A stretch of DNA of 64,000 nucleotides from an uncultured virus (IMG/VR IMGVR_UViG_3300005405_000309) (lineage: Duplodnaviria; Heunggongvirae; Uroviricota; Caudoviricetes): IMG/VR virus record IMGVR_UViG_3300005405_000309. The stretch is one strand, 5' to 3'. The translations under genes were made by a program, and so were the position numbers. Positions 7,050-48,051 of the stretch are shown here, one piece after another. The notes below the pieces were generated by a model that ran no database searches, was not told the origin of the DNA, and saw only the letters and a list, made by a program, of their open reading frames with translations. The stretch's first letter is position 1, and each line of letters starts with the position of its first letter.

Positions 7050-7260
7050 AAAAAAAGAGGCCCTATGTCTGCTTGCCTAAAAATGGCAATAAAAACATAA
7101 GGTCTCTTGTTATTTTTTTGAAATTCAGGGTTTCTCAGAAATAATCCAGAGAAAGGATGTAAGGGAACCGAAGTCATCCGATTCGTAAACTCTCGTTCGC
7201 ACCAATCCTAATAGCACGAAGAAACAATTTCGCAAAGGCGAAGGGAAATAGTAATAAATA
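7050..7260 (-). ncRNA. Conserved structured leader/attenuator, copy A
   Basis: TGgTATACT -10 at 7268-7276, shared hairpin core, terminator with U-tract at 7050-7056. Confidence 0.75.
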
Positions 7261-7327
7261 TGTGCTTAGTATACCACATGAAATGTCTAAAGAAAATACG
7301 TATTAAGCTCCCGGCTGGCTTTTGGTT

Positions 7328-7819
7328 TTATACTGCTACTTTTAAAGTCAGATTAATTAATTCCTCTAGCTGTTCAGCTCTTAACTCGTTAGCACGTGCG
7401 AATAGGTTCTGTATTTCTTTCTGACAGTTCTTGTACTGTGGTAATTTCTTAACTTGATTATGTCCCCATTCAAGCAATTCCTTTTGAGCGTTTCTGAGGT
7501 CTTTACGGCTTTTATGGTCGGCTGTGGTGTTATAGTCCGGCACATTGATTCCTAATCGTATATATTCGGCGTGGGTTAGCTTACAGTATGTTATAAAATC
7601 TTCTTCACTCATTCTGAAGTCTGAGATAGGATCTAATATTCTCTCAACCTTTTCACCAAGTGCTATTTCTTCTTCGATAAGTTTAGTATAGAAAAGGTTC
7701 TCTCTCAGGATCTTTACCTTAGCTTGTTTTTCAAGCTTCTTGATTGTTTCGTGCATTGCCTTAGCTTCCATGTATTTAATTTGTGCGGGAGCGAATAATT
7801 TTTTCATATTTGTTTTCAC
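7328..7819 (-). CDS. Hypothetical protein
   Basis: 163-aa ORF. Confidence 0.7.
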   Translation of the reverse strand: MKTNMKKLFAPAQIKYMEAKAMHETIKKLEKQAKVKILRENLFYTKLIEEEIALGEKVERILDPISDFRMSEEDFITYCKLTHAEYIRLGINVPDYNTTADHKSRKDLRNAQKELLEWGHNQVKKLPQYKNCQKEIQNLFARANELRAEQLEELINLTLKVAV

Positions 7820-8344
7820 CTCAACTCATTTCTTCTGGATTTCACAACGAAATACCAGTATCCAGCAATCTTCTTTTTGTCATTCTTTTGAATTTGTTAT
7901 AAAACAATTTCCCTTTGATTTTCTGATTAACATAAAAGTGATTACATTGTGTAATTTTTATAACCCATACCTTTGCAGGGTTATATATATCAGTTACCTC
8001 AAGTATTTTCATTTTATCCTTCCTCTCATAGGGAGTATCGTTTTCACCCAAACTCTTTTATAATAATATTAATACGCCTCCACAATTCGCCAGGCAACCT
8101 CTATAAACTTAGCTGAACTTATATAGGTTGACTATTACACCATACCCTATAACTCTCTGCCTGTATCGCTTCTTCTGCTTGATCTAAAAGGTGATTTTTT
8201 CTCTGGGTCTCTTTTGGTGTAAGAATTTCTTTGTCTAATAATTTATTCAACTCAACATAATCTTTGTCCGACATAGCAAATTCCCCCTTGTTTATAAATA
8301 AGCCGAAGCCTACACGAGTAAACGCATAGACCCCTTACAACTCC

Positions 8345-8689
8345 TTACGCATCTATCTTAAAAGTTAAGACAGAATTGCCCCTATGATTTTGCAAATCGC
8401 CTGCATCTAAATCCCTTTCTACCAGGTTATTACCTAGGGCCCGCTCAATAGCTTGATGTAACCTAACGTTGAAATCGCCATATCCAAGCCCCGGCATTTT
8501 TTCTTTAATGTTTCGAGCAAGGACAGGATCTTTTGCAGTTTTTTCAATTAGAAAGTTCATAACCTCATCGCCATCAAACATTTCAAAGCAGTCGTCAAAA
8601 ACCCGTCCAAAGGTAAGATTCTTATTAATCATGTTCGCTGCAATACTAGCCCTCTGTCTTGCTGTTTTTGCTTTGGTTGCTAAACTCAT
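8345..8689 (-). CDS. Hypothetical protein
   Basis: GAGGGG RBS. Confidence 0.7.
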   Translation of the reverse strand: MSLATKAKTARQRASIAANMINKNLTFGRVFDDCFEMFDGDEVMNFLIEKTAKDPVLARNIKEKMPGLGYGDFNVRLHQAIERALGNNLVERDLDAGDLQNHRGNSVLTFKIDA

Positions 8690-8705
8690 TTAATAATCCC
8701 CCTCA

Positions 8706-9623
8706 TTAGTAATTAAATGCCCACTTCCCCCGCTCAGTCGAGACGAAATCCTTGCATTTTTGCAATGTTTGACGAACCTTAGCCTGCCAAGTAGTATTGG
8801 TAGCACACTTAGCATGCCCTTCGATCTCCCTGTAAAGATTGTTCAGGTTTGCTTTTCCGCCCAATGCCTCCATTGCAGCATGCACGACATCGTGCCAGGT
8901 CAATGTTGCTCGGGTTCGCAAATCCACATCAACTTGCTTCACTACTCGAACCGGCACGACATATCCTGAATTTCTTTTAAAAATAAGCACGTATTCATGA
9001 GTAATAGGAATAAATTTTCCACTATACTTTGTCTGCGAAGAAACACAGTTATGCTGCGTCTTAATAATGACTTGCTCCGGGCTCCCAATCCAAGACATAT
9101 CTTTCATCATACTGAACAATTTCCCTTTTTGCTTATAATCGCCGACTAAAATAGCCATCCTTCCACCTTGTCGCAGAGACGAAAAAAGCTTGGCCTGGAC
9201 TTTGTCACTTTTACGAATAAACTCAGCCCAGCTCCCACAACGACTTAAATCTCTGGGATCAGGCGCATCCCCCCACATATTACCCGAGTATTCGATCATG
9301 GTATGATACGGCGGGTGCCAAAAGATAAAGTCGGCTGATTCTGGCACCTCATCATTCAGCGCGTCCCAACCACCGAACTTAGGGTTTAGATCGAGCGCAT
9401 AATGATTAATGCCAAGTTCCTTCGAAACATCGACAAAGGTTCCCGATCCAACCATAGGATCAAACGCCTTCTTTGGGGAATACCATTCAAGAAGGTCTTT
9501 GATTAATAAGCCAGAACAGTTTCCTCTCCATCGATTATCGCCGTACTTCCCTCTTTCGGGATAACTTACCACCGTCGTTAAATGAGGCTTGGATGATACA
9601 AGCTTAAGTGCTTCATTCGCCAT
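8706..9623 (-). CDS. Orphan amino (N6A/N4C) DNA methyltransferase with C-terminal winged-helix-like domain
   Basis: DPMVGSGT (SAM-binding) and HPPY (catalytic) motifs. Confidence 0.8.
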   Translation of the reverse strand: MANEALKLVSSKPHLTTVVSYPERGKYGDNRWRGNCSGLLIKDLLEWYSPKKAFDPMVGSGTFVDVSKELGINHYALDLNPKFGGWDALNDEVPESADFIFWHPPYHTMIEYSGNMWGDAPDPRDLSRCGSWAEFIRKSDKVQAKLFSSLRQGGRMAILVGDYKQKGKLFSMMKDMSWIGSPEQVIIKTQHNCVSSQTKYSGKFIPITHEYVLIFKRNSGYVVPVRVVKQVDVDLRTRATLTWHDVVHAAMEALGGKANLNNLYREIEGHAKCATNTTWQAKVRQTLQKCKDFVSTERGKWAFNY

Positions 9624-9733
9624 GTCTATTTCTCCCTTCTAAATAGCAGGAGTCTATACGAAAATACGTACAGACTCCTTAAATATGTTACCCCATTATC
9701 ACGTTACAAAAAATCGAAGATGATCTTAAATCT

Positions 9734-9943
9734 CTATTTCACAGACAATTTTAAGCCGTGCTTTAAATATTTAATTACCTTCACTATCTCTTTACGCAAA
9801 ATTTCCGAACCTATTGCGAAGTGAATACTCTCTAAAATAGTTAATGCCGACTCCATATCTTTAACTATCTCATCAGGTACCCGATACTCTTCTGCTATTG
9901 TCCTTACAGCAATACCGTTATCCAACACGAACACTCCCTCCAT
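9734..9943 (-). CDS. Small hypothetical protein
   Basis: ORF co-oriented in the operon; start uncertain. Confidence 0.5.
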   Translation of the reverse strand: MEGVFVLDNGIAVRTIAEEYRVPDEIVKDMESALTILESIHFAIGSEILRKEIVKVIKYLKHGLKLSVK

Positions 9944-10014
9944 CCTTGAATAACACTAACGAACTATCGTTTTAATAACTTCTTCATGGCTTCAATCTGA
10001 AGCTTGCCACAACA

Positions 10015-10257
10015 TTAATCGTTAGCAACAGCCCCAGTAAGCGATAGACTTGAACTAAGTGCCTCCTCAAGAATCTTTAAAACGCGCTGTATTCGCACCA
10101 CATTCATTCCTCCAGGACCATAAATCGTAAGATCTTCGTTAAACTCCTTCTCCCCTTGCAATAACGATAGAGCCTGGGAACATGCATCCATAAGAATTGT
10201 CAAAGGCTCAGCATGAGCAATAACACCTTGCTCGATCCGTTCTAGTGGATTTTGCAT
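10015..10257 (-). CDS. Hypothetical protein
   Basis: GGAGG RBS. Confidence 0.65.
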   Translation of the reverse strand: MQNPLERIEQGVIAHAEPLTILMDACSQALSLLQGEKEFNEDLTIYGPGGMNVVRIQRVLKILEEALSSSLSLTGAVAND

Positions 10258-10763
10258 AAGTTTACCCCTCCCCTATGCTGATTTTCTTCATTTTTTTCAA
10301 TTGCTTGTATTCCCCATCCAAAATGGCCATTCCTCAATAAAAAATTGATGAACTCATGTACCGACAAAATCGTTCCTCCTGCTAATCTAACGGTGCAAAA
10401 CCCTAAAACGTAGTTTAATTCTCTCGCAAACGGCTCCTCATAGAGAGTTACAAGATTCGAAAGATAATTTTCTTCTTCTAAATGTTTAAACGCCAATATA
10501 ACTAACCCAAATCTCTTAATGTCATCTTTTATGGTTTGAATCAAATTATTTTCGTCAACGATCCCACTGTAAAAAAATCGATTCCCCTCGAACAAGTAAT
10601 AACGTTCACCCTTACTATATACGTCGATAAGTTCACCGTGAATATTCTCCTTATAGACACTCGATGTTTTGTAAGCCTCTACATGATCCTCTGTTGCTCT
10701 CATAATACCCATATAGTTCGTAAGAACCGGTTTGATCAAATCTGCAAATAACATGTTCGACAC
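10242..10763 (-). CDS. Hypothetical protein
   Basis: AGGAG RBS. Confidence 0.7.
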   Translation of the reverse strand: MSNMLFADLIKPVLTNYMGIMRATEDHVEAYKTSSVYKENIHGELIDVYSKGERYYLFEGNRFFYSGIVDENNLIQTIKDDIKRFGLVILAFKHLEEENYLSNLVTLYEEPFARELNYVLGFCTVRLAGGTILSVHEFINFLLRNGHFGWGIQAIEKNEENQHRGGVNLCKIH

Positions 10764-10793
10764 TCCTTATTCCTTTAAATTAGCTTATTTTAT

Positions 10794-11432
10794 CTAGTGG
10801 CGCAGTACGGTGGAATACCCACATCTGGACAATTCCGCGCCACTATTACCAATCTCAACCATATGCGCTCTCAGCCAGATAAACCATTCTTTATTCGACC
10901 GGTCTCTTGGAAACATACCATGTGTATCGGACGCTTCCCGATACATAGGTAACTCCCCTGTGAGATTCGCTCTAAGTAAGTATAGCCACATTGGGTCGTA
11001 TGCGATTGACAGTTTGTCAGCATAACATAATCGACTAGGCAACTTGCCCTGACACTCAGAGTATCGTCTACTGTGATAAAGGCAAAGATCACCATATGTC
11101 ACGCCAAAGAATTTACGAGCTATCTTACCAGCTAACTCAGGGTGCATACTTCCTTCCTCATCGTCCATATCAGCGCACCCAAAGTAGCCCCAATCATGGA
11201 TAAATATGCATAGCACTTCTCTGTAATTTGGTAAGCCATATAAATGTACCCATGCAAACAATACTGTCAAAGGGTGCCAGATCACACTATGCACACCAAA
11301 AATTAAGCTTTTCGTCCCAACCTTCACAGTGATCCTCCTTTCACCTCGCTCCTTATCGAGCTGCAGGCAACGTTTCTGAAAGAGAGAAAAAAGAATATCC
11401 TCTTCTCCCTTTGACAACTCCGCAACTTTCAA
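10794..11432 (-). CDS. HD-like phage protein
   Basis: GVH..WHP, IHDWGY, HSR and YADK motifs. True start may be downstream (VKVGTKS). Confidence 0.55.
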   Translation of the reverse strand: MKVAELSKGEEDILFSLFQKRCLQLDKERGERRITVKVGTKSLIFGVHSVIWHPLTVLFAWVHLYGLPNYREVLCIFIHDWGYFGCADMDDEEGSMHPELAGKIARKFFGVTYGDLCLYHSRRYSECQGKLPSRLCYADKLSIAYDPMWLYLLRANLTGELPMYREASDTHGMFPRDRSNKEWFIWLRAHMVEIGNSGAELSRCGYSTVLRH

Positions 11433-11481: not shown

Positions 11482-11740
11482 AAAAAAAAGAAACCCGTCT
11501 ATCAATCTCATGATTTCAGGGTTTCTCTTGCATAATCAATATTTAAAAATGTCAAAAAACCGTCCGCAACCTTTTTGGGGTTATATCGAACAGATTACAA
11601 TTAACTACGGGTGTTTTCGCTAAAACGAAAACAATATGTCCGCGAATTCGAAGTGATCCGAACCCTAAACTCTCATTCGCACCAATCCAGTAGCACGAAG
11701 AAACACTATCGCAAATGCGAAGGGAAAAAGTAATAATTAT
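11482..11740 (-). ncRNA. Conserved structured leader/attenuator, copy B
   Basis: TGcTATACT at 11747-11755, shared core 11645-11735, terminator 11482-11528. Confidence 0.75.
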
Positions 11741-11842
11741 GCTTTCAGTATAGCACTGTGAACTCAAAAAGAAAAGAGTTAGAACATAGTTGTCCCAACC
11801 CTTTCCTATTAATCTTCAGTGATACTTTCAAATATGTCAAAA

Positions 11843-12232
11843 CTATAATCTTTCAAATGGGGCACCATAACCATATTTTACGATAACCATACTACTTTCA
11901 ATTTTCATAATAACTTTCATAGGGAATCTTTCGTCCATATCAGGGATATGAGATTCTATAGCTGCTTGTAACAAAATTTCTTTTGGCTCATAGTCGGTAG
12001 ACAAAGTAATTTGTTCGCAAGTTTCCATATTTTCCATGATTATATTGAATAGGGCTTGTGCAAAGGCATCTACTGAACTTTTGTCTAGGGCTTCAATGCT
12101 ATCGCTTTCAGTTCTGAAAACGTTTACGTTCATACCATGTTCTCTTGTAGGCTTTTGTAACAAGAATTCTGACCACCAAGAGACAGCTTTTTTCACAACT
12201 TCGAATTGATTCGTGGATTTCATATGCCACAA
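11843..12232 (-). CDS. Hypothetical protein
   Basis: 129 aa; AVSWW and STDYEP..L..A pattern typical of phage-like proteins. Confidence 0.7.
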   Translation of the reverse strand: MWHMKSTNQFEVVKKAVSWWSEFLLQKPTREHGMNVNVFRTESDSIEALDKSSVDAFAQALFNIIMENMETCEQITLSTDYEPKEILLQAAIESHIPDMDERFPMKVIMKIESSMVIVKYGYGAPFERL

Positions 12233-12600
12233 TCCCCCTTTTAGAAAACCGTTTTAATATCAATTAAAACATTTTGCTAGGAAAAATCAGCACCATAATT
12301 CAGTTTCATCCATAATGTTTTTGTTTCTATTCTGTATACTTCAACACCGGGTTCCAGAAGCCCCTGTATATTATTGCTCTTTCTTTTGCCCATCACACCA
12401 TGGGCAGGATTCCGGTGGGCAGGCTTTTAAAATGACATCCCTTTCGTCTAGGACACTCTTCCCATCTTTCCCCAACGTATCCCAATGGCAACCCAGTTCC
12501 ATTCCACCCCACGGACTAATAACCTTATAGTGCTGTTGGCTATCACTAGACATACTCTTCTCTCCTTTTTTACGTAAGGAAGACAAAGACATTGTCCTCA

Positions 12601-13875
12601 TTACGCACTCTTTCTCTGTTGTTTCTTTTTCCTTTTTTCTAGTGGTAAAAGAGTAGGTTCCGACTGTTTAAGTATGGCTTCCCTTGTGATGACGCACTCT
12701 TCAACATCGGACCGTGACGGTAAATCATACATAACATTAAGCATAGTTTCCTCCATAATTGCTCGAAGTCCCCTGGCCCCCGTATTCCGTCGTATTGCTT
12801 CGGCCGCTATGGCAAGCAAAGCATCTTCTTTGAACGTAAGCATGACTCCATCAAGTTCCATCAGTTTCTGATATTGCTTAACGAGAGCATTTTTAGGTTC
12901 TGTTAAAATGCGAACTAGATCAACTACATTCAAAGTATCTAAGGTAACGATCACCGGCACACGCCCTATGAACTCTGGAATTAACCCAAATTTCACTAAA
13001 TCGCCTGGTAAGACTTGTTTTAGAACGTTATCTTTACTAAATGCTTTTTTCGTCTGAATATCTGCTCCAAACCCCATCAGCTTTTTCCCGTCGCGGTTTT
13101 GAATAATCCGTTCGATGCCATCAAATGCTCCACCAACAATAAAGAGAATATTGGTCGTATCTAGTTGGATAAATTCCTGGTTCGGATGCTTACGACCACC
13201 TTGGGGCGGTACATTAGCAACCGTTCCTTCGATAAGCTTTAAGAGCGCCTGCTGCACCCCTTCGCCTGAAACATCCCTTGTAAGAGAAGGGTTTTCTGAT
13301 TTTTTCGCGCACTTATCAATTTCATCAATATAGATAATGCCTCGTTCAGCCTTTTCCACGTTATAGTCAGCAGCCTGTAGTAGTTTCAGCAAAATATTTT
13401 CTACATCTTCCCCCACGTAACCCGCTTCAGTTAACGATGTGGCATCAGCTACTGCAAAGGGCACATCAAGAACTTTCGCTAAGGTAGATGCAAGTAGGGT
13501 TTTCCCCGTCCCTGTCGATCCCAGCATTAGAATGTTTGATTTTTGTAACTCTATTCCATCATTTCCAGTTGTGGCATGAATTCGTTTGTGATGATTATAT
13601 ACGGCTACAGCCAGAGCCTTTTTAGCTTGGTCCTGGCCAATAACATATTGATCAAGAATTGCTCGAATCTCCTGCGGTTTTAATCTATTGGCAATTATGG
13701 AACCATTTTCTGCAGAGTCATGTCCTAATTCCTCTAACTTCTCATTGATAATTTCATTACATAAATCGATACAATCGTTGCAGATATACACCCCTGGTCC
13801 CGCTATTAACTTTTGTACTTCCCCAGAGTCTTTACCACAGAAGCTGCATTTTAAATTATTGTCTTTTTTAACCAT
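12601..13875 (-). CDS. clpX: ATP-dependent Clp protease ATP-binding subunit ClpX
   Basis: CSFCGK..CNDC zinc domain, GSTGTGKT Walker A, IDEIDK Walker [20 protein letters not shown] and MGF loop. RBS supports MVKKD at 13875. Confidence 0.97.
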
Positions 13876-13939
13876 ACATCCACTCTCCCTATAACATCTA
13901 AAGTATTCTTTTAATCCATGCGCTATTATCGACTTTACG

Positions 13940-14332
13940 TTAGATAAACTTCTGAGTCTCAATAAATCGTTCGATCATTGTTACAGATTCCTCACCTACT
14001 GTACAAACTAAATAATTACTCGTCCACAATGTCGGAATCCGGCTTTTAATCCATGAAAACTCTTGTCTCAGTACCCGAGACGTTTGACCCTTAAGTTGGC
14101 GCACTAACCGGTGGATGCCATATTGCGGATCTATCTCTAATAGGAGGTGCACTTGATCGGGCAATATCTCCAATTTAATAATTTCCGCTGCATGAAGTAC
14201 GGCGACCTCTTTTATCAACTCCTCCAACCGTCGTTCAGCTCCATCCACTAGTACGTTACGCCGAAGCTTCGAACACCATATGACGCGATACCTACAAGAA
14301 TAAGTCACTCCGCCATTAATTTTATATTTCAT
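13940..14332 (-). CDS. tnpA: IS200/IS605 TnpA-like Y1 transposase with substituted catalytic residues
   Basis: Fold motifs [25 protein letters not shown] and LWTSNY. HUH reads DQVH; the catalytic Tyr position reads IERFIETQ. Confidence 0.85.
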
Positions 14333-17230: not shown

Positions 17231-17240
17231 GACCTGTGTT

Positions 17241-40096: not shown

Positions 40097-40165
40097 TTCT
40101 TTAACTTTATCTTTTAAAATGTTAAATCCCCCTCGATTTTTAAATATATCAGGCTACCTAAATAC

Positions 40166-40792: not shown

Positions 40793-40949
40793 CTATTTTC
40801 ACTCCTTACGCCGGAAGGTAGCCCCGGCTTAGCCTTTAGTCATTACTTCTTTGGATAAAATACCAAACTGGAGGTGACGGAATTAACAATACGATTCCGG
40901 TCTCTCCTATACATTATTAACCGCCTCCTAACAAGCCCCGGTACTTCCT

Positions 40950-41324
40950 TCAATAGGGCTTATGATCCTCCCAAATGCAGGCGAAGCCAACCTCTTGCAT
41001 TTTTTCAGCTAATACCTCAGGCTCCACAACTTCTAAATTCTCTAACGTTCCCCATCCCCACAATACAATGTGATCTGGGTGAAAATATGCATCAATGACC
41101 GTCTTTGTCTTCGATTCGCCAGTTTGAGGGTGATAGTCTGGCACATTTGATACAAATTCCATGTGTCTGTCATAAGGCATGTCCATATTACTCCCATCTA
41201 CTTTAAATAACCCTATACACTGGCTAAGTTCATTTCCCCAGCAAATTACTATCGCTGAATCGAATAATCCCTTCCTTATAAAAATAAATAGAAGAAGGCA
41301 ACAAAATTGCCCTCTCCTTAACAA
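40950..41324 (-). CDS. Hypothetical protein, 5' end possibly frameshifted
   Basis: ORF downstream of dnaN. Confidence 0.45.
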   Translation of the reverse strand: MLRRGQFCCLLLFIFIRKGLFDSAIVICWGNELSQCIGLFKVDGSNMDMPYDRHMEFVSNVPDYHPQTGESKTKTVIDAYFHPDHIVLWGWGTLENLEVVEPEVLAEKMQEVGFACIWEDHKPY

Positions 41325-41334
41325 CTACGATTTA

Positions 41335-42489: not shown

Positions 42490-42526
42490 AATTAAAAGTC
42501 CCCTTTCAAATTGGCGGTTAAACCGC

Positions 42527-43372
42527 TTATTTTTGTATCCCTTTTAAATAATCACTCGTTATGTACTCCGTCCGCACCACTTGATTTCGTGCATTGAAAT
42601 TCGTGTAATGACTCACTGCCACTCCTTCTGATAAGATCGTGTTTAAATATCCCAGTACAACGGTCGTTGCCATTAGATTCGTCTGCATTCGTTGTGGGTA
42701 ATTCACGACCGCCCTTCCACAAGCTTGCGATGGAAAAAAATCAGTCGCATTCCCTAAAACATCTGAGTACACACCACCAACAGGTTCCAAGATCGTACGA
42801 GAGTTATGTCGTACCCCAAGCACAACCTGGCCAGAATACCCACTCTCTCGTTCATCCTCTTCAGATATTTCCTCAGAGATAGGAAGAACTCCATCATTGC
42901 CAGCATCAATATAGATTAAACTAGGCGAATCCATAAAATGGTCATGAAGTAATCGGCGTGTAGCGTTATTGTCCACTGCACCGATTAAAACCTTAATGAC
43001 CTGAACTCCGGGATAGCTATTAAAATCGCTCTTCATAGTAAACAACTGCTTAACTGCGTCCATCGTTTCTAGGTAATTACCAATCTTGCGAATATCCATA
43101 TCATAGACATTCCCATATCGTCGGGCTAAAACATCGACTTTCTTTTTCCCCACATCTGCCTGAATGAAATTTTGGCGCCTCAGATTATGCTCTTCGACAA
43201 CATCACCGTCAGCCAAAGTAAGACAACCTTCAGTATCAAACGCTTTAAACATCCGGGTCAAAGACTGCAGGATATAGCCACCCGTGCCTCCAACCCCTAC
43301 TAATGCGATATCCCAAATGATTCTAGCCTGTGTACTTGATGGAATAACGCGCAACTCAATCGTTTTTGACAT
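42527..43372 (-). CDS. ThiF/E1-like adenylyltransferase (PRTRC-type)
   Basis: VGVGGTGG, DGDVVEEHNLRRQNF, AVDN and candidate Cys in SQACG. Confidence 0.9.
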   Translation of the reverse strand: MSKTIELRVIPSSTQARIIWDIALVGVGGTGGYILQSLTRMFKAFDTEGCLTLADGDVVEEHNLRRQNFIQADVGKKKVDVLARRYGNVYDMDIRKIGNYLETMDAVKQLFTMKSDFNSYPGVQVIKVLIGAVDNNATRRLLHDHFMDSPSLIYIDAGNDGVLPISEEISEEDERESGYSGQVVLGVRHNSRTILEPVGGVYSDVLGNATDFFPSQACGRAVVNYPQRMQTNLMATTVVLGYLNTILSEGVAVSHYTNFNARNQVVRTEYITSDYLKGIQK

Positions 43373-44771
43373 TCACTTCGCCCCCAGATCGTTCAATCCT
43401 CATGTGCCATGTTTTCTTTTCAGCGTCGGTTGGTAAGTGCCTAGGTGCGTAAGAATCGTTACCAACGATATCGAACGGATTAATACGATGAAGATTCCCG
43501 CCACAAGCAATTCGACAGTCAAAACTCTGTCCTTTTTCATCTAACTTGTCCAGGTTTCCCCATACACCAAAAATGCCCGTCGAGACGGTTTCATCAATAT
43601 CGTCCGCTTCACTAAAAAAAGCATCCCATGTATTGTGCGAATGCATTTCTAAGACTTTTGTATATTTTGCCTCTATTAGTAAGTCTTCCGAATGATTTGT
43701 CGGGAAAACTTCATCAATAGTGACTACCTGGTAAGGAACATGCGCAAAATAACGCTGACCATCCCAATATATTCGTGCAAGAGCCTCCACCGGACTTGGC
43801 CCAATTGCAAGTTTAATAAAAAAATCTCTTACGACTCGTATCAAATCCGCAGGGATTTTGGGCATGAAAAGCTTAACGCCCTCTTGAACCTGTTCAGCAT
43901 TCGGATATGCTTCGTCGTTGAGTTTTATTGCAAAAATCCCAACCTTACTAATCCTCACTTCATAAAGTCCATCCTTACCTTGCAGAAGATTGCTTATTGA
44001 AGGCCTATTAAGAAGCGCTTGCCAACTTGAATGCGTCCGGACCCATGACATATCTTTATGCGCTGCCACAGCACCTTTTTTACCACCAAAAACATCTGCA
44101 AGTACCATCCCGTGTGGTCCAAGGGCCTTGATAACTGCTTGCAAAAGGTGATGTTCAATTTCTTCAAGATCATCCAAACTCGAGATCAACGGATCTTCTA
44201 ACTCTGGTATTGAAACATGAACAACTACTCCATCTTCGACGGTATCATCATTATCCTTTGAGTCCTTCTCATTCAACGCGGGATCTTCTTCCTCTTCCTG
44301 AGTGTCATCCGCATCATCCATGACTTCTTGTGATTCCGGTACCGTCGTTTTCTCCTCTTCTTCTAGAGGCGTTACTTCTGTCTCACCCTTAGCCTTTTTC
44401 TTGGCCTTGGGAAGTTTCGGTGGAATATAACTCATCATTGTCCGTTCCTTCGATAACTCCGGAAAGCGTTTTGCCATTTCCTTACGTATCTCTTGCAATG
44501 TCAACGTTCTGTTTTTAATGAGAATGTAATGGGCCGAAAAACAGAATATCTTCATATAGTTTAGGTATTCAGGTGACTTGTCAGATACGGTCTTAGCCTG
44601 ACCAGGTTTAACATTCGTTGCAGCCATGCCGGTCGTTACTTGTGTACTTGCATTTTTTTCTTTGGCATGCTGTACAGCCCCAGCCGTAAGACCAATCGGC
44701 TTCGGCTTTTCTTTCTTATACTGTTCAGCCTCTTCAGTTGGCAAAAGCCCAAATAAATCTAATTGATCCAT
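43356..44771 (-). CDS. JAB/MPN metallopeptidase with N-terminal putative Ubl and acidic region
   Basis: VEALARIYWD and HSHNTWDAFFSEADDIDE (JAMM); internal GGKKG. Confidence 0.85.
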   Translation of the reverse strand: MDQLDLFGLLPTEEAEQYKKEKPKPIGLTAGAVQHAKEKNASTQVTTGMAATNVKPGQAKTVSDKSPEYLNYMKIFCFSAHYILIKNRTLTLQEIRKEMAKRFPELSKERTMMSYIPPKLPKAKKKAKGETEVTPLEEEEKTTVPESQEVMDDADDTQEEEEDPALNEKDSKDNDDTVEDGVVVHVSIPELEDPLISSLDDLEEIEHHLLQAVIKALGPHGMVLADVFGGKKGAVAAHKDMSWVRTHSSWQALLNRPSISNLLQGKDGLYEVRISKVGIFAIKLNDEAYPNAEQVQEGVKLFMPKIPADLIRVVRDFFIKLAIGPSPVEALARIYWDGQRYFAHVPYQVVTIDEVFPTNHSEDLLIEAKYTKVLEMHSHNTWDAFFSEADDIDETVSTGIFGVWGNLDKLDEKGQSFDCRIACGGNLHRINPFDIVGNDSYAPRHLPTDAEKKTWHMRIERSGGEVNVKND

Positions 44772-44796
44772 TCTTCAATTCCTCCTCAAACATTAA

Positions 44797-45474
44797 TTAC
44801 ATCCGTTGCCATAAATCGTCTAATGTTTCCTGTCTCGATACTAAGATATCCTTCGGAAACACGTCTTTCATCTGCATCGTTTCTATCAACTGACGATAAG
44901 ACATATTTAACATCGTTTGTGTGTTAGGACTATAAAGATGTCCATTATCAGGGCATCCAAAAAAGACCGTTGGCAACCCATTAACCTGCCAAAGCTCTTC
45001 GATCTCTGGTACATCATTCCAACAAGCTAGCGCATCGTCATAGACATTACTGTACGGATAACGATAGAGCTGAGTGTTAGGTTGAATAAACAGATCCTTA
45101 ACAGCCACAACATATTTCTTGGAAACCGCCGTCCCATTTAGAACAAACCCAAAGATTAGATCTGGAAATGGGAGATTTTGAATTCGCTGATCAAATAACC
45201 AGGTATCCCTTAACCCACTAGGAACATGAATTAATACCTTCTGCCCCCCATTGCCCGTTGCATGGCGAAGACAATTCTTAGGGAGCCAAGGTCCCTCTCT
45301 CCACACGGTACTCAAGTTAGCCTCAGCAGCATCGATGAGCATGTGCAATTTCTCAGGCAGCACTTCTTTTTCGATAACTCCGCCCTCGTCGTCTACGAAA
45401 TGCACAAACGGGAACTTGTATTTTCTTAAAAGTATGATAGCCGAACCTTTCTCCTCTAAATCCGTTAGTACCAT
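44797..45474 (-). CDS. Prokaryotic E2-like protein (family D / PRTRC B-like)
   Basis: LPFPDLIF..LYRYPYSNVYDDALACW..FF pattern; next to JAB and ThiF. Confidence 0.8.
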   Translation of the reverse strand: MVLTDLEEKGSAIILLRKYKFPFVHFVDDEGGVIEKEVLPEKLHMLIDAAEANLSTVWREGPWLPKNCLRHATGNGGQKVLIHVPSGLRDTWLFDQRIQNLPFPDLIFGFVLNGTAVSKKYVVAVKDLFIQPNTQLYRYPYSNVYDDALACWNDVPEIEELWQVNGLPTVFFGCPDNGHLYSPNTQTMLNMSYRQLIETMQMKDVFPKDILVSRQETLDDLWQRM

Positions 45475-45949
45475 GCTGCTTTAACATCTCCTTCACTTTA
45501 ATAAAATAGTGAATTACATCAACTAGCCCAAGCCAGTCACAACAAGTCTCCTCCTCCCAAATTCGGAAAAAGACAGCGCTCCCTCGAAGATTAATCTCAT
45601 AATTTTCCTCAAAATAATGAGGAAATTGTTCATCCCAACTAATGGATCTCGGCAGTTTCACCGCAAAAATAAAACTTTCATTTCTTTGCCTATTCCTGCG
45701 AATAATTGTAAACCCTAAAAATCTCAGTGTGCTCAAAGTGAATCTTAACGCCTCTTGAAAGTTATCCTCAGCATAGTAATTTCTTACCCCTTTAATTGCT
45801 GGCAACATGTCAATATGGTCATGAAACAGTTCTTGTCGATACCCACTATCTGTGAGAAGTTTCCTTGTAGATAGTTCTAATGTTGCGGCGTTAAATAGCG
45901 TAAAATCTCCCGGTGCAAACAAAAAAGGATCGAGAATATCCATCTCCAT
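45353..45949 (-). CDS. Hypothetical protein, putative paralog of 46311-46841
   Basis: DFTLFNAATLELSTRKLLTDSGY vs DVHLYNLAMSELLLRKTLYKHGY. Confidence 0.65.
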   Translation of the reverse strand: MEMDILDPFLFAPGDFTLFNAATLELSTRKLLTDSGYRQELFHDHIDMLPAIKGVRNYYAEDNFQEALRFTLSTLRFLGFTIIRRNRQRNESFIFAVKLPRSISWDEQFPHYFEENYEINLRGSAVFFRIWEEETCCDWLGLVDVIHYFIKVKEMLKQHGTNGFRGERFGYHTFKKIQVPVCAFRRRRGRSYRKRSAA

Positions 45950-45967
45950 CCACTCCTCTTGTAATAT

Positions 45968-46339
45968 TTAAAAATAGAGCTCCTCATGTCTTACTGCTGG
46001 TACTCGTCGTACTGTTTTTTCATAGTCTATGTCACCAGATTCCTGTTTTAAAAGCGTATGAAGCCATACTTGCTCTTCACCAACGTCTTCAAGCGTTGTA
46101 TCTCCGTCCATGCTTGGTACCGAGCTCAAAAGATAACTAATCCAAGCTAAATCATCAAGACTAAATTTTGTATAATCGACATTTAGAAAAAAGTCGGATT
46201 CTCCAAAATCCGTCGCCTCGATCATCAATCTGTGGAGCGGTATAAACCTTTTCACAAAGACTTCTTGATTTGTCAAAGGTGGAGGATTCTTTAAATAGTC
46301 TTCTAATACCTTAAGCAGTTCGGTCATGTATGAATTCAC
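45968..46339 (-). CDS. Hypothetical protein, paralog of 46857-47216
   Basis: Shared DY..L.W..P..D and VPA.R.EE.YF C-terminus. Confidence 0.7.
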   Translation of the reverse strand: MNSYMTELLKVLEDYLKNPPPLTNQEVFVKRFIPLHRLMIEATDFGESDFFLNVDYTKFSLDDLAWISYLLSSVPSMDGDTTLEDVGEEQVWLHTLLKQESGDIDYEKTVRRVPAVRHEELYF

Positions 46340-46841
46340 GAGCGAACACCTCCCCAGCTATCGATCTCCATGATAAAAAGTTCGATAGTAGTTGAGCCAA
46401 GTCAAGCAGGAGACACCTAATACTACTTTCTCGCTCCCAACAAAGAACCGTTTGACGATCCTTAGTAAAAAAATAGAGAGACGATAGAAAATGAAATTCT
46501 TTATTTAGAATATCCAGCCATACCTTTCTTTGACTGTTCAATCGCTGAGCACTCCACCCGTTAAGTTCTGGGAGAGTAATTTTATATACGACCTTTTTTA
46601 AAGAATGTAAACTCTTATAAGATCGCGCTACAGAATATCCAACGTATTCAAAAACTATCTTGAAGATATCCTCACCGAGATCTATGATATCCCAAGAAGA
46701 GATTTGACAATCACCAAACCATGGGAATTCTAAGGAAGAATTATACCCATGCTTATAAAGTGTTTTTCTAAGAAGCAATTCGCTCATCGCAAGATTATAT
46801 AGGTGAACATCTTCTTGGTCTAGTAAGATTAAGTCATTCAT
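46311..46841 (-). CDS. Hypothetical protein
   Basis: RBS; overlaps the next gene. Confidence 0.7.
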   Translation of the reverse strand: MNDLILLDQEDVHLYNLAMSELLLRKTLYKHGYNSSLEFPWFGDCQISSWDIIDLGEDIFKIVFEYVGYSVARSYKSLHSLKKVVYKITLPELNGWSAQRLNSQRKVWLDILNKEFHFLSSLYFFTKDRQTVLCWERESSIRCLLLDLAQLLSNFLSWRSIAGEVFAREFIHDRTA

Positions 46842-46856
46842 ATTAATTACCTTTCC

Positions 46857-47216
46857 TTAAAAATACACTTCCTCGATTCTAATTGCGGGTACCTCTTCAG
46901 GACTCACCATTGTATCCATTTGATATGCTTTACGGAATACCATATCACGCAACAACATATCCCGAGTTACCTTCTCCGCATCGTATCCATCATCAATCGT
47001 TGGAATCTGATTGATTTCCGAAATAACCCATAACAACTCTTCTTCATTAATCTGGGAGTAATCCAGATAACACGCAAAATCCTTCTCATTGGTCGTCGAT
47101 ATGATCATGTTGAATCCACTCAAGAGCCCTTTGGCATATGCTAGGCGCGATTCGCTTTCTTCATCCGGCGCTCGCATATACCGTTCAATCTCTTGTAGTA
47201 TCAGAGCGCTCATCAT
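46857..47216 (-). CDS. Hypothetical protein
   Basis: GGAGG RBS. Confidence 0.7.
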   Translation of the reverse strand: MMSALILQEIERYMRAPDEESESRLAYAKGLLSGFNMIISTTNEKDFACYLDYSQINEEELLWVISEINQIPTIDDGYDAEKVTRDMLLRDMVFRKAYQMDTMVSPEEVPAIRIEEVYF

Positions 47217-47297
47217 GGGGCATTCCTCCTATCTCAATTTTAAAAGCACCTAGTACTCAAAGTCGCTAAGTGCTTTTTATAACTCCGACAAAAATAA

Positions 47298-47771
47298 TCA
47301 TTTTGGGTTCACCCTGCGATCACGATGACGATACAAGATATTTTTAGCTAAATTACTCTTAGCTGTTACCATGTAGTAATCTTTTCGTGTTACCTCTTCA
47401 ATAAGAACATCAAACTGCTTATCTATATCTTCACGATTATTTTTTAAGAGCTTCCACATATAGGTTGTAAGAATAAAAAAACTAGGTTGCGCTACTTGCT
47501 CTGACAGAATTGATTGGATATTAGATATTTCGTGTTTTCGAGTAAAAGTATTTATCTTTGCGTTAGGAACACTCTCAATTATGTCTCTTTCACAAAAGCC
47601 TACCATCATAGGGTGGACTACCACCAGTACTTTATAATTATCCGTACAACTTTCATCAGTACTAATTATAATACTTGAAAAGGTCTCATTCCCCATTTCT
47701 TTTTCAATTAAAAGCAAATTGGTATCCCCTAAATCCTTGTTAACAAATACCGCTGACTCAAATGAATTCAT
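47298..47771 (-). CDS. Hypothetical protein, first gene after leader E
   Basis: AGGAG RBS. Confidence 0.7.
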   Translation of the reverse strand: MNSFESAVFVNKDLGDTNLLLIEKEMGNETFSSIIISTDESCTDNYKVLVVVHPMMVGFCERDIIESVPNAKINTFTRKHEISNIQSILSEQVAQPSFFILTTYMWKLLKNNREDIDKQFDVLIEEVTRKDYYMVTAKSNLAKNILYRHRDRRVNPK

Positions 47772-47809
47772 GCTCTAGCTCTCCTTTCAATTATATGTTG
47801 ATTTATAAT

Positions 47810-48017
47810 AAAAAAGAGGCTTATGTAAAATCGCCTAAAAATGGCAACGTTTAACATAAGCCTCTTGTATTTTTAAAATTTCAAGAATCCCCGAAATAAT
47901 CCAGAGATAGAAATATTGGTGAATCCGAAGTAATCCGAATTCTAAACTCTCATTCGCACCAATCCAGTAGCACGAAGAAACTCTATCGCAAAATGCGAAG
48001 GAAAATAGTAATAATAT
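47810..48017 (-). ncRNA. Conserved structured leader/attenuator, copy E
   Basis: TGcTATAAT at 48024-48032, shared core, terminator 47810-47866. Confidence 0.75.
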
Positions 48018-48051
48018 AAACTTATTATAGCATGGTTTTTTACGAAAATCT

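What the first reader, a model, noticed from the sequence alone, without database searches (positions are those of the whole stretch)
7050..48035. Five-copy structured leader RNA with terminator heading five operons: candidate element-wide attenuation regulon
Seen: one non-coding unit recurs at ~7050-7276, 11482-11755, 21042-21310, 32288-32512 and 47810-48032, always on the minus strand. Each copy has an extended -10 (TGnTATAAT/TATACT), a 5' AUUACU(A/U)UUU segment, hairpin UUCGC..GCGA, hairpin UUCGUGCU..GAUUGGY GCGAA-type, one or two GGA-UNNN-UUC hairpins and a long-stem terminator with U-tract. The first gene of an operon follows. The stems rely on G.U pairs that work only on the minus strand. 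The operons include the E1/E2/JAB-dnaN-MTase run and the ligA/C5-MTase run. Established: conserved upstream sequences control establishment genes in pLS20-family plasmids (EGeRS) and IncN plasmids (CUP repeats). Inference: a default-off attenuator, or an antitermination loading site, switches these operons together, for example after transfer. It could instead be a multi-copy sRNA. I do not recognise it as a known riboswitch.
Basis: partly seen in the sequence, partly recalled or inferred. Interest (0 to 1): 0.9.

Follow-up and report, generated by a model that had tools for sequence, protein, structure and literature searches.

The report
Five-copy promoter–leader RNA–terminator module
A mobile element from a groundwater metagenome carries five copies of one small unit (a strong promoter, a folded RNA of about 200 bases and a very strong stop signal), each placed just before a block of accessory genes, which looks like a shared on/off gate of a kind not yet catalogued.

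Summary
A covariance model of the core finds exactly five hits in the window, all on the minus strand (84-117 bits; next best 13 bits). Each unit has an extended -10 promoter, a conserved 5' segment, hairpins P1, P2 and P3, often P4, and one or more intrinsic terminators. A co-oriented gene starts 33-110 nt after the terminator.

The fold is an RNA fold of the sense strand. P3, P4 and the terminator show compensatory changes, while P1 and P2 hardly vary in sequence. No Rfam family matches. Outside the window I found only three other non-redundant copies: two Desulfosporosinus MAGs (one also on a metagenome contig) and one further metagenome contig. In each, only the unit is shared and the flanks are not.

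I found no conserved antiterminator pairing, so a classical attenuator or riboswitch is unlikely. My best reading (about 0.45) is a leader-plus-terminator gate read through only when the hairpins recruit a factor or modify RNA polymerase, as in nut, put, canT or conAn2. The main rival is a multi-copy small RNA gene (about 0.25). No trans factor was identified and no RNA data exist. It is analogous to the pLS20/p576 EGeRS sequences but is not a member of either type.

The parts
47810..48032 (-). Copy c5, whole unit: extended -10 TGCTATAAT 48032-48024; 5' segment 48012-48003; P1 47999-47986; P2 47980-47947; P3 47942-47921; P4 47907-47888; terminator stem 47864-47816; U-tract 47815-47810.
   Evidence: CM R1 115 bits. 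Motif coordinates. Terminator dG -23.3 kcal/mol. Whole-leader fold -65.3 kcal/mol, z -6.8.
32288..32512 (-). Copy c4, whole unit: extended -10 32512-32504; P1 32478-32465; P2 32459-32426; P3 32421-32401; P4 32386-32367; terminator stem 32343-32294; U-tract 32293-32288.
   Evidence: CM R1 116.4 bits.
21042..21310 (-). Copy c3, whole unit: extended -10 21310-21302; P1 21278-21266; P2 21262-21229; an inserted extra P2-like hairpin of about 50 nt; P3 21173-21152; a further P2-top-like piece 21136-21115; an unrelated shorter terminator 21096-21049; U-tract 21048-21042.
   Evidence: CM R1 83.7 bits, plus a weak 13.3-bit partial hit at 21115-21136. Alignment A3.
11482..11755 (-). Copy c2, whole unit: extended -10 11755-11747; P1 11721-11709; P2 11703-11670; P3 11665-11644; then unrelated hairpins and two terminator-like hairpin + T-tract sites (stems 11593-11560 and 11525-11490; T-tracts 11559-11554 and 11489-11482).
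   Evidence: CM R1 117.4 bits.
7050..7276 (-). Copy c1, whole unit: extended -10 TGGTATACT 7276-7268; P1 7242-7230; P2 7224-7190; P3 7185-7163; P4 7152-7133; terminator stem 7106-7057; U-tract 7056-7050.
   Evidence: CM R1 113.8 bits.
36281..47771 (-). Gene run after c5. The first gene is 47771-47298 (157 aa, no family), with its ATG 38 nt after the U-tract. The run includes the PRTRC cassette (ThiF-like 43372-42527, PRTRC_A-like 44771-43356, E2/PRTRC_B-like 45474-44797), dnaN 42489-41335 and an Mrr_N-N6/N4 methyltransferase 37492-36281. There is an internal terminator-like site at 39661-39628.
21508..32205 (-). Gene run after c4. It contains small unknown genes, an IscB + HEARO insertion, DUF6908, DUF3560, NAD-dependent LigA (26180-24165) and a C5 methyltransferase (23747-22206). 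A hairpin at 32238-32183 pairs UCCCUCC with the GGAGGGA ribosome-binding site.
11843..20979 (-). Gene run after c3. The first ORF starts at ATG 20979 (60 aa), 62 nt after the U-tract. The run includes an RHH/NikA-like + YokU-like protein (19961-19512), an IS200-type TnpA and a ClpX-like ATPase. There are internal terminator-like sites at 16656-16638 and 15792-15772.
7328..11432 (-). Gene run after c2: unknown genes and an N6/N4 methyltransferase (9623-8706). A terminator-like hairpin at 11806-11771 lies just upstream of the c2 promoter and closes the preceding run.
3976..7016 (-). Gene run after c1. The first ORF is 7016-6783 (77 aa), with its ATG 33 nt after the U-tract. Then come 6767-5868 and further unknown genes, ending with an HTH protein at 4515-3976.

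Best explanation
Each unit is a promoter-proximal leader that gates the gene run behind it.

Proposed sequence of events:
1. A strong sigma-A type extended -10 promoter with no conserved -35 starts an RNA of about 190-250 nt.
2. The RNA folds into a row of independent hairpins. P1 and P2 are almost invariant in sequence. P3 and P4 share the apex GGA-UNAN-UUC.
3. The RNA then meets a very strong intrinsic terminator (a 16 + 5 bp stem and U6-7 in three copies).
4. By default the transcript ends there.
5. The genes are transcribed only when the polymerase is made terminator-resistant, and the leader hairpins are the loading signal. They would either bind a protein, as in N-nut or the LoaP hairpin, or act on the polymerase directly in cis, as in put, canT or conAn2.

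The same signal heads five runs of methyltransferase, ligase, sliding-clamp, PRTRC and unknown genes, so these runs would be switched together.

Shown here: the repeat, the promoter and terminator motifs, the strand-specific RNA fold with compensatory changes, the position before genes, and the lack of an alternative fold.

Inferred: that termination is the default, that read-through is regulated, that the hairpins are the recognition site, and that the switch relates to transfer or establishment.
For: 1. It is a transcription unit, not just a repeat. The extended -10 sits at a fixed distance from P1 in 5 of 5 window copies. TGn is kept in 6 of the 8 non-redundant copies known (5 in the window plus L004, L017 and L018), read from alignments A3 and A4. 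A hairpin plus T-tract closes every one of the 8 copies, including c2 and c3, where the hairpin sequence is unrelated. The terminator function is therefore kept while its sequence is replaced.

2. It is an RNA structure of the sense strand.
- On 6 full-length copies, 94.6% of cells pair.
- 9 pairs show changes on both sides, against 3.6 in shuffles (0 of 500 shuffles reach the observed value).
- Pairing falls to 39-58% when partners are slid by 1-3 columns.
- The compensatory changes lie in P3, P4 and the terminator stem.
- For P1-P4, sense RNA gives z -2.9 and antisense RNA z +0.2.
- As single-stranded DNA, neither strand beats shuffles (z -0.9 and -0.8).

3. There is little room for another promoter. 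A co-oriented ORF with a ribosome-binding site starts 33 nt (c1), 38 nt (c5), 62 nt (c3), about 50 nt (c2) and about 85-110 nt (c4) after the T-tract. Co-oriented ORFs also follow in L004, L017 and L018.

4. There is no conserved competing fold. With the terminator's 3' arm removed, P1-P4 remain and the 5' arm pairs differently in each of 6 copies. Any read-through must therefore work on the polymerase or on the terminator itself, not through an alternative hairpin.

5. P1 and P2 barely vary. In 8 sequences, 4 of 4 P1 pairs and 9 of 13 P2 pairs never vary, while P3, P4 and the terminator drift. This fits a sequence-specific recognition site.

6. The hairpin modules vary in number. Copy c3 has an extra P2-like hairpin. 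L004 has [P3-P4-terminator] twice in tandem before its gene.

7. There is precedent. cis-acting antiterminator RNAs that pair with insulating terminators are described for conjugative elements of Gram-positive bacteria: conAn2 (PMC8191782, passages read) and canT of Tn916 (PMC11658703, passages read). Multi-copy conserved regulatory sequences head establishment operons in pLS20 and p576 (PMC8708921).

8. A few internal terminator-like sites lie within the runs, at 39661-39628, 16656-16638 and 15792-15772.
Against: - No read-through, transcript ends or expression could be examined. Nothing here shows that termination is conditional.
- No candidate factor was found. No NusG/LoaP, ConAn1 (PF17362), Q, ANTAR or CAT/PRD-type family turned up among 72 ORFs in Pfam, 57 in NCBIfam or 56 in PHROGs. 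The window is only part of the element.
- Stems of 16 bp or more are the class reported to resist conAn antitermination in pLS20, where TerR has a 15 bp stem and average stems are 7-9 bp (PMC10325885, passages read). Such a terminator fits a definitive RNA end better than a gate.
- In the three other non-redundant loci the unit occurs once, or once plus a partial copy. A regulon is seen only in this window.
- A TATAAT-like hexamer follows the T-tract in several copies. A weak independent promoter for the downstream gene cannot be excluded.
- The covariation rests on 6-8 related sequences. The tool itself warns that related sequences can exceed the shuffles without any structure.
Confidence: 0.45

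Rival explanations
1. The unit is a stand-alone small RNA gene present in five copies. A constitutive promoter and a strong terminator give an abundant, stable RNA of about 190-250 nt. This RNA acts in trans, for example as a sponge or partner for a host or element protein that recognises the P2, P3 or P4 hairpins, or by base pairing. The genes behind it get only leak-through or their own weak promoter.
For: - What is conserved between the window and the other loci is exactly promoter-to-terminator, about 210-245 nt. The flanks are unrelated at DNA level and almost entirely at protein level.
- The terminator is very long-stemmed and followed by U6-7, typical of a definitive RNA 3' end. Long stems resist processive antitermination in pLS20 (PMC10325885).
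- No alternative fold exists.
- Repeated, similar hairpins in variable number are typical of protein-sequestering RNAs. This last point is general knowledge, recalled.
Against: - In 8 of 8 copies a co-oriented gene with a ribosome-binding site begins 33-115 nt after the terminator, with no conserved promoter in between.
- In the window the five copies sit only at the heads of gene runs.
- The GGA/GGATT motifs are not consistently present: 1-5 per copy. GGA in the P2 loop is lost in c3, L004 and L018. A CsrA-type sponge is therefore not supported.
Confidence: 0.25
2. The unit is a fixed, unregulated dosage and insulation cassette. A strong promoter is damped by a leaky terminator, so each run gets a low, constant level of transcription. 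The terminator, with an A-tract before it and a U-tract after it, also stops antisense transcription and read-through between runs. The hairpins mainly stabilise the 5' end of the RNA.
For: - The terminator is flanked by a conserved A-tract upstream and a T-tract downstream, so it would work in both directions.
- A terminator-like hairpin also lies directly upstream of the c2 promoter.
- The pLS20 EGeRS1-B sequence blocks read-through from upstream promoters (PMC8708921).
Against: - It does not explain why about 100 nt of P1-P2-P3 are kept nearly identical across eight copies in unrelated contexts, while the terminator itself is free to change.
- 5' stabilisers do not need four hairpins.
Confidence: 0.12
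3. The conserved stretch just after the -10 is a DNA operator, possibly extending into the hairpin region. An element-encoded repressor binds there and blocks the five promoters, as in the p576 EGeRS2/Reg576 system. One candidate is the RHH protein at 19961-19512. The RNA fold would be secondary.
For: - An RHH/NikA-like protein is encoded in the run after c3.
- p576 uses an RHH repressor on four establishment promoters, and some of its operators lie just downstream of the start site (PMC8708921; PMC6294495, abstract only).
- The segment ATTACT(A/T)TTT next to the -10 is invariant in the window.
Against: - The compensatory changes in P3 and P4 keep RNA pairs while making the DNA half-sites less alike. 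In L004, for example, C-G becomes U-A.
- G.U pairs make the fold strand-specific.
- The Reg576 heptamer TTATCCC is absent from all five units.
- An operator of more than 100 bp would be unusual.

A short operator overlapping the 5' segment could nevertheless coexist with the RNA mechanism.
Confidence: 0.08
4. The unit works as single-stranded DNA after transfer, either as an Frpo-like single-strand promoter or as a single-strand origin (sso) for complementary-strand synthesis.
For: - The copies are orientation-specific, multi-hairpin and multi-copy in a conjugative element.
- Frpo-like promoters occur in multiple copies in leading regions: 13,089 in 6,006 elements (PMC11541004, passages read).
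Against: - As DNA, the promoter + P1-P4 region folds no better than shuffles on either strand (z -0.9 and -0.8).
- The -10 is not inside a conserved hairpin, and nothing upstream of it is conserved.
- The T-tract after a hairpin is conserved even where the hairpin is replaced, which is a transcription-termination feature.
Confidence: 0.04
5. The unit is a ligand-sensing riboswitch, a classical attenuator with competing folds, or a small mobile repeat (MITE).
For: - The leader-plus-terminator layout is that of many riboswitches.
- The unit is a discrete repeat found in unrelated contexts.
Against: - No Rfam family reaches threshold. The only gathering-level hit in the window is HEARO, elsewhere. 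The best E-value-mode hit on copy 5 is sok at 20 bits, against a gathering score of 59.
- There is no multi-helix junction and no competing antiterminator.
- No conserved leader peptide exists. An ATG in the P3 loop occurs only in c1 and c4.
- No terminal inverted repeats and no flanking direct repeats beyond 3-6 nt AT-rich chance matches were found in 5 of 5 copies.
Confidence: 0.04

Closest known systems
EGeRS1 of pLS20-family plasmids (Val-Calvo et al. 2021, PMC8708921)
   Same: - Several copies (five in pLS20) of one conserved, hairpin-rich non-coding sequence.
- All copies lie within one part of a conjugative element of a Gram-positive host.
- Each copy sits immediately upstream of the ribosome-binding site of a putative establishment operon.
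- It prevents read-through.
- One copy carries an internal duplication, as do c3 and L004 here.
   Different: - EGeRS1 is 420-750 bp and GC-rich (51% against 38% for the plasmid). It has no detectable constitutive sigma-A promoter.
- The unit here is 223-274 bp and slightly AT-richer than its surroundings (33-37% against 40%).
- It starts with a consensus extended -10 and ends in a canonical terminator.
- It shows no DNA similarity to any PLSDB plasmid at E <= 0.01.
EGeRS2 / Reg576 system of p576 (PMC6294495, PMC8708921)
   Same: - Strong promoters are repeated before several establishment operons.
- An RHH protein is encoded within the regulon, and an RHH-type protein is also present here.
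   Different: - Control in p576 is by dual TTATCCC operators on DNA, with no leader RNA and no terminator.
- The heptamer is absent from all five units.
cis-acting antiterminator RNAs of conjugative elements: conAn2 (+ConAn1) of pLS20-like plasmids and canT of Tn916
   Same: - An RNA element upstream of terminators in a conjugative element of a Gram-positive host.
- It is orientation-specific.
- Terminators act as insulators that only properly initiated transcripts pass.
- conAn2 alone works only over short distances, which would fit a terminator placed right behind the hairpins.
   Different: - Both are single-copy, larger (260-600 bp and 452 nt) and placed at the start of, or upstream of, the conjugation operon.
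- conAn needs ConAn1 (PF17362) for processivity, and that family was not found here.
- No sequence or structure comparison with conAn2 or canT was possible.
- Here there are five copies, each with its own promoter and its own long-stem terminator.
Phage antitermination sites: lambda N-nut, HK022 put, lambda PR'-tR' (6S RNA)/Q (recalled, not tested)
   Same: - Small hairpins in a promoter-proximal transcript make the polymerase terminator-resistant.
- In lambda, a constitutive promoter gives a short terminated RNA of about 194 nt unless an antiterminator acts.
- The invariant TACTAT-like hexamer in the initially transcribed region could be a sigma-dependent pause element. This is inference.
   Different: - No N, Q or Nus-recruiting sequence was identified.
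- The hairpin sequences are unrelated.
- The element is conjugative rather than a phage.
- All these resemblances are recalled, not computed.
Type III toxin-antitoxin loci (toxIN-like; recalled)
   Same: The layout is the same: constitutive promoter, structured RNA, leaky terminator, then a protein gene immediately downstream.
   Different: - There are no short tandem RNA repeats.
- The first downstream proteins are unrelated to each other in all copies, so a specific RNA-protein pair is implausible.

Membership tests
Any Rfam 15 family | Covariance-model score at or above the family's gathering score | tested here: not met
   In the whole window at gathering thresholds, the only hit is HEARO at 31131-31336, outside the units. 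In E-value mode on copy 5, the best hits are ceN102 at 24 bits (gathering 50) and sok at 20 bits (gathering 59). The other four copies were not scanned separately in E-value mode.
EGeRS1 (pLS20 type) | More than 60% identity to the pLS20 EGeRS1 sequences | tested here: not met
   blastn (word size 11) of copy 5 against 72,556 PLSDB plasmids gave no match at E <= 0.01. I did not verify that pLS20 itself is in that collection.
EGeRS1 (pLS20 type) | 420-750 bp, GC-rich relative to the element, no constitutive sigma-A promoter | tested here: not met
   The units are 223-274 bp and 33-37% GC, against 40% for the window. A consensus extended -10 is present in 5 of 5. Promoter activity itself was not tested.
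EGeRS1 (pLS20 type) | Multiple copies, each directly upstream of the ribosome-binding site of a putative establishment operon | tested here: met
   Five copies, each 33-110 nt upstream of a co-oriented first gene.
EGeRS2 / Reg576 (p576 type) | Dual TTATCCC heptamer operators flanking the promoter | tested here: not met
   The heptamer is absent on both strands in 5 of 5 units.
conAn bipartite antitermination system | A ConAn1 protein (Pfam PF17362, pXO2-34) encoded next to the RNA element | tested here: not met
   No PF17362 hit among 72 window ORFs at E <= 0.001. Only this 64 kb window was examined; the rest of the element was not.
conAn bipartite antitermination system | A single 260-600 bp RNA element at the start of the conjugation operon, with a GC-rich region, SL1 and a 20-bp inverted repeat | tested here: not met
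   Here there are five copies of 223-274 bp, downstream of the conjugation genes, AT-rich, with no 20-bp flanking inverted repeat.
Frpo-type single-strand promoter | -35 and -10 lie inside a stable DNA hairpin of the transferred strand | tested here: not met
   DNA folding of the promoter + P1-P4 region of copy 5 gives z -0.9 (minus strand) and -0.8 (plus strand). 40 and 44 of 200 shuffles fold as well. Nothing upstream of the -10 is conserved. Only copy 5 was folded as DNA.
Riboswitch / classical attenuator | A conserved alternative (antiterminator) pairing that competes with the terminator | tested here: not met
   Six copies were folded without the terminator's 3' arm. The partner of the 5' arm differs in each, and P1-P4 are unchanged.
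MITE / small mobile repeat | Terminal inverted repeats and target-site duplications | tested here: not met
   The longest end-to-end inverted match is 3-4 nt, and the longest flank-to-flank direct match is 3-6 nt of AT-rich sequence, in 5 of 5 copies. The unit boundaries are only approximate.
Intrinsic-terminator-gated leader (generic) | Promoter, structured 5' RNA, hairpin + U-tract, then a co-oriented gene without an intervening promoter | tested here: inconclusive
   The sequence features are present in 8 of 8 copies. The absence of a downstream promoter and conditional read-through cannot be shown from sequence. A TATAAT-like hexamer follows the T-tract in some copies.

The most novel reading that the evidence does not exclude
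The unit is a new, compact class of antitermination module. A hairpin array of about 145 nt (P1-P4) loads an unknown factor onto RNA polymerase, or acts on it directly. This lets the polymerase pass an unusually long-stemmed terminator that would stop every other transcript. Packaged with its own promoter and terminator as a portable cassette of about 230 bp, it has been copied to the heads of five accessory operons, making an element-wide, RNA-addressed regulon. In this reading the module is an RNA counterpart of the Reg576 and EGeRS establishment regulons, and it also moves singly between unrelated mobile elements.
Probability: 0.3. Interest if true: 0.75.

Novelty: new variant of a known kind. 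Interest (0 to 1): 0.58.

Why it matters
Two things are already described: conserved regulatory sequences that tie scattered accessory or establishment operons of a conjugative element into one regulon (pLS20, p576, IncN CUP), and terminator/antiterminator pairs in Gram-positive conjugative elements (conAn, canT). This unit combines the two in a small, self-contained cassette with a clear RNA fold and no database match.

If read-through proves to be regulated, it would give:
- a short, portable switch of about 230 bp, and a new RNA motif for study of how polymerase is made terminator-resistant;
- a sequence tag for finding co-regulated anti-restriction and establishment genes in elements of poorly studied anaerobic Firmicutes.

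If it proves to be an sRNA, a five-copy sRNA carried by a conjugative element would be of interest in its own right.

The limits are its rarity (four non-redundant loci in all collections searched) and the lack of any expression data.

Tried and rejected
- **Whole genome of the window:** none is held.
- **Expression data:** no RNA holder is listed for window 5000-14000. The only run listed is a DNA run (X1, labelled groundwater metagenome) that may be the source.
- **Earlier notes of this scan:** none.
- **More relatives, pattern scans:**
  - Viral contigs: 0 hits with a P2 pattern and 0 with a 5'-segment/P1 pattern.
  - Genome contigs: 9 loci, of which the model confirms 2 (L004, L008); the other 7 are chance matches to the P2 top only.
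  - Metagenome contigs: 7 loci, of which 2 are confirmed (L017, L018). L018 gives the same model score and the same blastn matches to the window as L008.
  - These scans required an exact P2 core, so diverged relatives would be missed.
- **More relatives, model R1 on whole genomes:** 2 of 69 in the family of G001, 2 of 112 in its class and 1 of 151 in a phylum sample. The hits were always the same two MAGs.
- **blastn of copy 5:** no match in PLSDB plasmids or INPHARED phages.
- **Related elements by protein:**
  - The 119-aa ORF at 47216-46857: 0 of 401 genomes.
  - The DUF6908 protein: 2 weak partial hits in 112 genomes, and 2 distant plasmid hits.
  - The PRTRC_A-like protein: 0 of 112.
  - None of these gave a related element to compare.
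- **Shared proteins between the window and the other loci:** only a 69-aa helical ORF (9943-9734, about 35-44% identical to one in L017), a C5-methyltransferase fragment in L004, and an 82-aa ORF in the MoxR region. No candidate co-occurring factor emerged.
- **CsrA-sponge idea:** GGATT counts vary from 1 to 5 per copy, and GGA in the P2 loop is not conserved.
- **Antisense promoter inside the unit:** a promoter-like site, TTGAAA-16-AATAAT, lies on the plus strand in c1. Its -10 is the complement of the P4 loop and is lost in L004 and L018, so I dropped it.
- **Leader peptide:** no conserved ORF in the leader.
- **R-scape:** not available here. The count of structure pairs was used instead.
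- **Supplements of the cited papers:** not consulted.

Full report
**Observation.** The repeat finder recovered them independently as families D2, D5, D6, D8 and D9. An alignment of the five minus-strand stretches shows a shared core running from a TGnTATA(A/C)T box to a GGAUUCGGAU..UUCG hairpin. A covariance model of that core (R1: 104 positions, 26 pairs) was run with filters off over both strands of the window. It gives five hits at 83.7-117.4 bits and nothing else above 13.3 bits. Motif coordinates for every copy are; the outer limits are 7276-7050, 11755-11482, 21310-21042, 32512-32288 and 48032-47810.

**Anatomy.** Reading the minus strand, each unit has the following parts.
- An extended -10 promoter, with no conserved -35 and no conservation further upstream.
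- An AU-rich 5' segment, ATTACT(A/T)TTT.
- P1, a 4-5 bp UCGC/GCGA hairpin with a variable U-rich loop.
- P2, a 13-bp hairpin with four G.U pairs and a conserved top, CGUGCUA..GAUUGGnGCG.
- P3, a 9-bp hairpin with the apex GGA-UNAN-UUC.
- In c1, c4 and c5: P4, a second hairpin with the same apex; an A-rich linker; then a terminator with a 16-bp outer stem, a 5-bp inner stem and U6-7.
- In c2 and c3, P1-P3 are kept but the 3' part is replaced. Copy c3 has an inserted extra P2-like hairpin and a shorter, unrelated terminator. Copy c2 has unrelated hairpins and two hairpin + T-tract sites.

Every copy still ends in a hairpin plus T-tract, even where the hairpin sequence is unrelated. That is the strongest sequence-level argument that the end is a transcription terminator and that the unit is a transcription unit.

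**RNA, not DNA, and only the sense strand.**
- On six full-length copies (three from the window, three from elsewhere), 94.6% of cells form standard pairs.
- Nine pairs change on both sides, against 3.6 in shuffles; 0 of 500 shuffles reach the observed value.
- Pairing falls to 39-58% when partners are slid by 1-3 columns.
- The compensatory changes sit in P3 (3 pairs), P4 (2) and the outer terminator stem (4). P1 and P2 do not vary, so their pairing is untested, but their sequence is under strong constraint.
- For P1-P4 of copy 5, the sense RNA folds at -38.2 kcal/mol (z -2.9; 2 of 200 shuffles as good). The antisense RNA gives z +0.2.
- Folded as single-stranded DNA, the promoter + P1-P4 region is no better than shuffles on either strand (z -0.9 and -0.8).
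- The data set is small and the sequences are related, so the shuffle counts are indicative and not a probability.

**Context in the window.** The window is part of a conjugative element. Nearly all genes lie on the minus strand.
- Pfam finds an M23/SLT cell-wall hydrolase, a UvrD-type helicase and an excisionase-like HTH at the upstream (right) end.
- Downstream come methyltransferases, an MmeI-type enzyme, NAD-dependent LigA, DnaN, a ClpX-like ATPase, DUF3560, DUF6908, a NikA/RHH-like protein, and insertion sequences.
- NCBIfam identifies the ThiF/E2 run as a PRTRC cassette.
- Each unit sits at the head of a run of co-oriented genes. The next start codon, with a ribosome-binding site, lies 33 nt (c1), about 50 nt (c2), 62 nt (c3), about 85-110 nt (c4) and 38 nt (c5) after the T-tract.
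- A terminator-like hairpin closes the preceding run just upstream of the c2 promoter.
- A few terminator-like sites lie inside the runs: 39661-39628, 16656-16638 and 15792-15772.
- Calling these genes 'establishment' genes is an inference from their content only.

**Distribution.** No whole genome is held for the window. The only sequencing run that holds the stretch is a DNA run labelled groundwater metagenome.
- Exact-pattern scans anchored on P2 found, after confirmation with the model, 2 of 9 loci in 185,579 species genomes. Both are Desulfosporosinus MAGs: L004, and L008 on a 1-kb contig.
- The same approach confirmed 2 of 7 loci in the metagenome collection: L017 and L018. L018 gives the same model score and the same matches as L008.
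- Viral contigs gave 0 hits with two patterns. PLSDB plasmids and phage records gave none.
- Model searches of whole genomes found only the same two MAGs: 2 of 69 (family), 2 of 112 (class) and 1 of 151 (phylum sample).
- In the outside loci, what matches the window is exactly the unit, promoter to terminator, at about 76-82% identity over 166-246 nt. The flanks do not match, and only three short protein similarities were found.
- Those loci look like mobile or defence contexts: an integrase, Fic, an Mrr-type endonuclease, an exonuclease. Each has a co-oriented ORF behind the unit.
- L004 carries [P3-P4-terminator] twice in tandem before its gene.
- The five-copy arrangement is so far unique to this window.

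**How it most likely works.** The default state should be termination. The terminator is canonical and very stable (-21 to -27 kcal/mol for the long form). I found no conserved competing structure: when the 3' arm is withheld, P1-P4 stay folded and the 5' arm finds a different weak partner in each of six copies.

This argues against a riboswitch or classical attenuator. It leaves two live readings.
- **A gate.** Read-through would have to come from a change in the polymerase, triggered by the leader hairpins. They would act either as a binding site for a protein or as a cis-acting RNA.
- **A stand-alone small RNA.**

I favour the gate (0.45), for four reasons.
- A gene with no evident promoter of its own follows in all eight copies.
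- In the window the copies sit only at run heads.
- The near-invariance of P1-P2 fits a recognition site.
- Conjugative elements of Gram-positive bacteria are known to combine insulating terminators with cis-acting antiterminator RNAs: conAn2 (PMC8191782) and canT (PMC11658703).

Against it:
- No antiterminator-type protein family was detected among 72, 57 and 56 ORFs in Pfam, NCBIfam and PHROGs.
- Stems as long as these are the class shown to resist conAn antitermination in pLS20 (PMC10325885).
- A TATAAT-like hexamer after the T-tract in some copies could be a weak promoter.
- There are no RNA data.

The sRNA reading (0.25) is favoured by the unit being conserved as a promoter-to-terminator cassette in unrelated contexts. 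Lesser rivals are a fixed dosage/insulator cassette (0.12), a DNA operator for an RHH-type repressor (0.08), a single-stranded DNA element (0.04), and a riboswitch or MITE (0.04). These are set out with their evidence in the rival section.

**Comparison with what is known.** The closest concept is the establishment-gene regulatory sequences of pLS20-family plasmids. In pLS20, five copies of EGeRS1 head five operons and block read-through. In p576, EGeRS2 consists of promoters with Reg576 operators (PMC8708921, Results read; PMC6294495, abstract and outline only).

The unit here shares that logic but fails the defining features of both types.
- It is short, not GC-rich, and has a consensus promoter and a canonical terminator.
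- It lacks the TTATCCC heptamer.
- It has no similarity to PLSDB plasmids.

It also differs from conAn and canT in size, copy number, position and the absence of ConAn1. It has no Rfam match. Resemblances to lambda N-nut, HK022 put, lambda PR'-tR'/Q and type III toxin-antitoxin layouts are recalled, not tested.

My literature searches found no description of this motif. They searched by concept, since a sequence cannot be searched in text, so they cannot prove the motif is unpublished.

**Verdict.** I class it as a new variant of a known kind, namely multi-copy regulatory cassettes heading accessory operons of a conjugative element, here built as promoter + RNA hairpin array + long-stem terminator. 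The RNA motif itself appears uncatalogued and rare. Interest is moderate to high (0.58).

Noticed in passing
window 29883-31336 (-): An IscB gene (RRXRR + HNH domains, 31109-29883) with its HEARO/omega RNA (31336-31131; Rfam RF02033, 151.6 bits) is inserted inside the gene run that follows copy c4.
   Followed up: partly
window 1747-3690 and 48052-51525: There are ISL3-family transposase genes at 3111-1747 (454 aa) and 51525-50440 (361 aa, shorter). An N-terminal fragment at about 48473-48052 ends within about 10-20 nt of the c5 promoter. A neighbouring stretch of about 240 bp with an 80-aa ORF is duplicated at 85-90% identity (3450-3690 and 48489-48732). All five units therefore lie between two ISL3-associated repeats.
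   Followed up: partly
window 32183-32238 (-): In the 5' UTR after copy c4, a stable hairpin (-22.5 kcal/mol) pairs UCCCUCC with the GGAGGGA ribosome-binding site of the first gene. This could be an extra, translational layer of control, and it is seen only at this copy.
   Followed up: no
window 42527-45474 (-): The 'E1/E2' genes match the PRTRC cassette models of NCBIfam (PRTRC_ThiF, PRTRC_A, PRTRC_B). All score below the curated cut-offs, so this is a distant variant. No JAB domain was detected by Pfam at E <= 0.001.
   Followed up: partly
L004 4133-4320 (+), i.e. G001:C32 about 14955-15140: A promoterless second [P3-P4-terminator] module lies in tandem right after the complete unit, so the downstream gene is preceded by two long-stem terminators.
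   Followed up: partly
window 21115-21228 (-): Copy c3 carries an inserted hairpin that reuses the P2 5' arm with a fully Watson-Crick partner. Further on it has a piece resembling the P2 top (CGGAUUGAUGCG). The hairpins behave as shufflable modules.
   Followed up: partly
window 12601-14371 (-): An IS200-type Y1 transposase gene (14371-13940) overlaps the start of a ClpX-like AAA+ ATPase gene with a zinc finger (13962-12601), within the run after c3.
   Followed up: no
window 52382-57549 (-): Upstream of the five units lie a GAF-GGDEF diguanylate cyclase, a YdjM-like membrane protein and a MoxR-VWA pair (bpMoxR type). An 82-aa ORF between MoxR and VWA has a 62% identical relative on the G001 contig that also carries the L004 unit.
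   Followed up: no
window 32737-35433 (-): A complete MmeI-family type IIL restriction-modification enzyme (all five MmeI domains) lies between the c5 run and the c4 unit.
   Followed up: no
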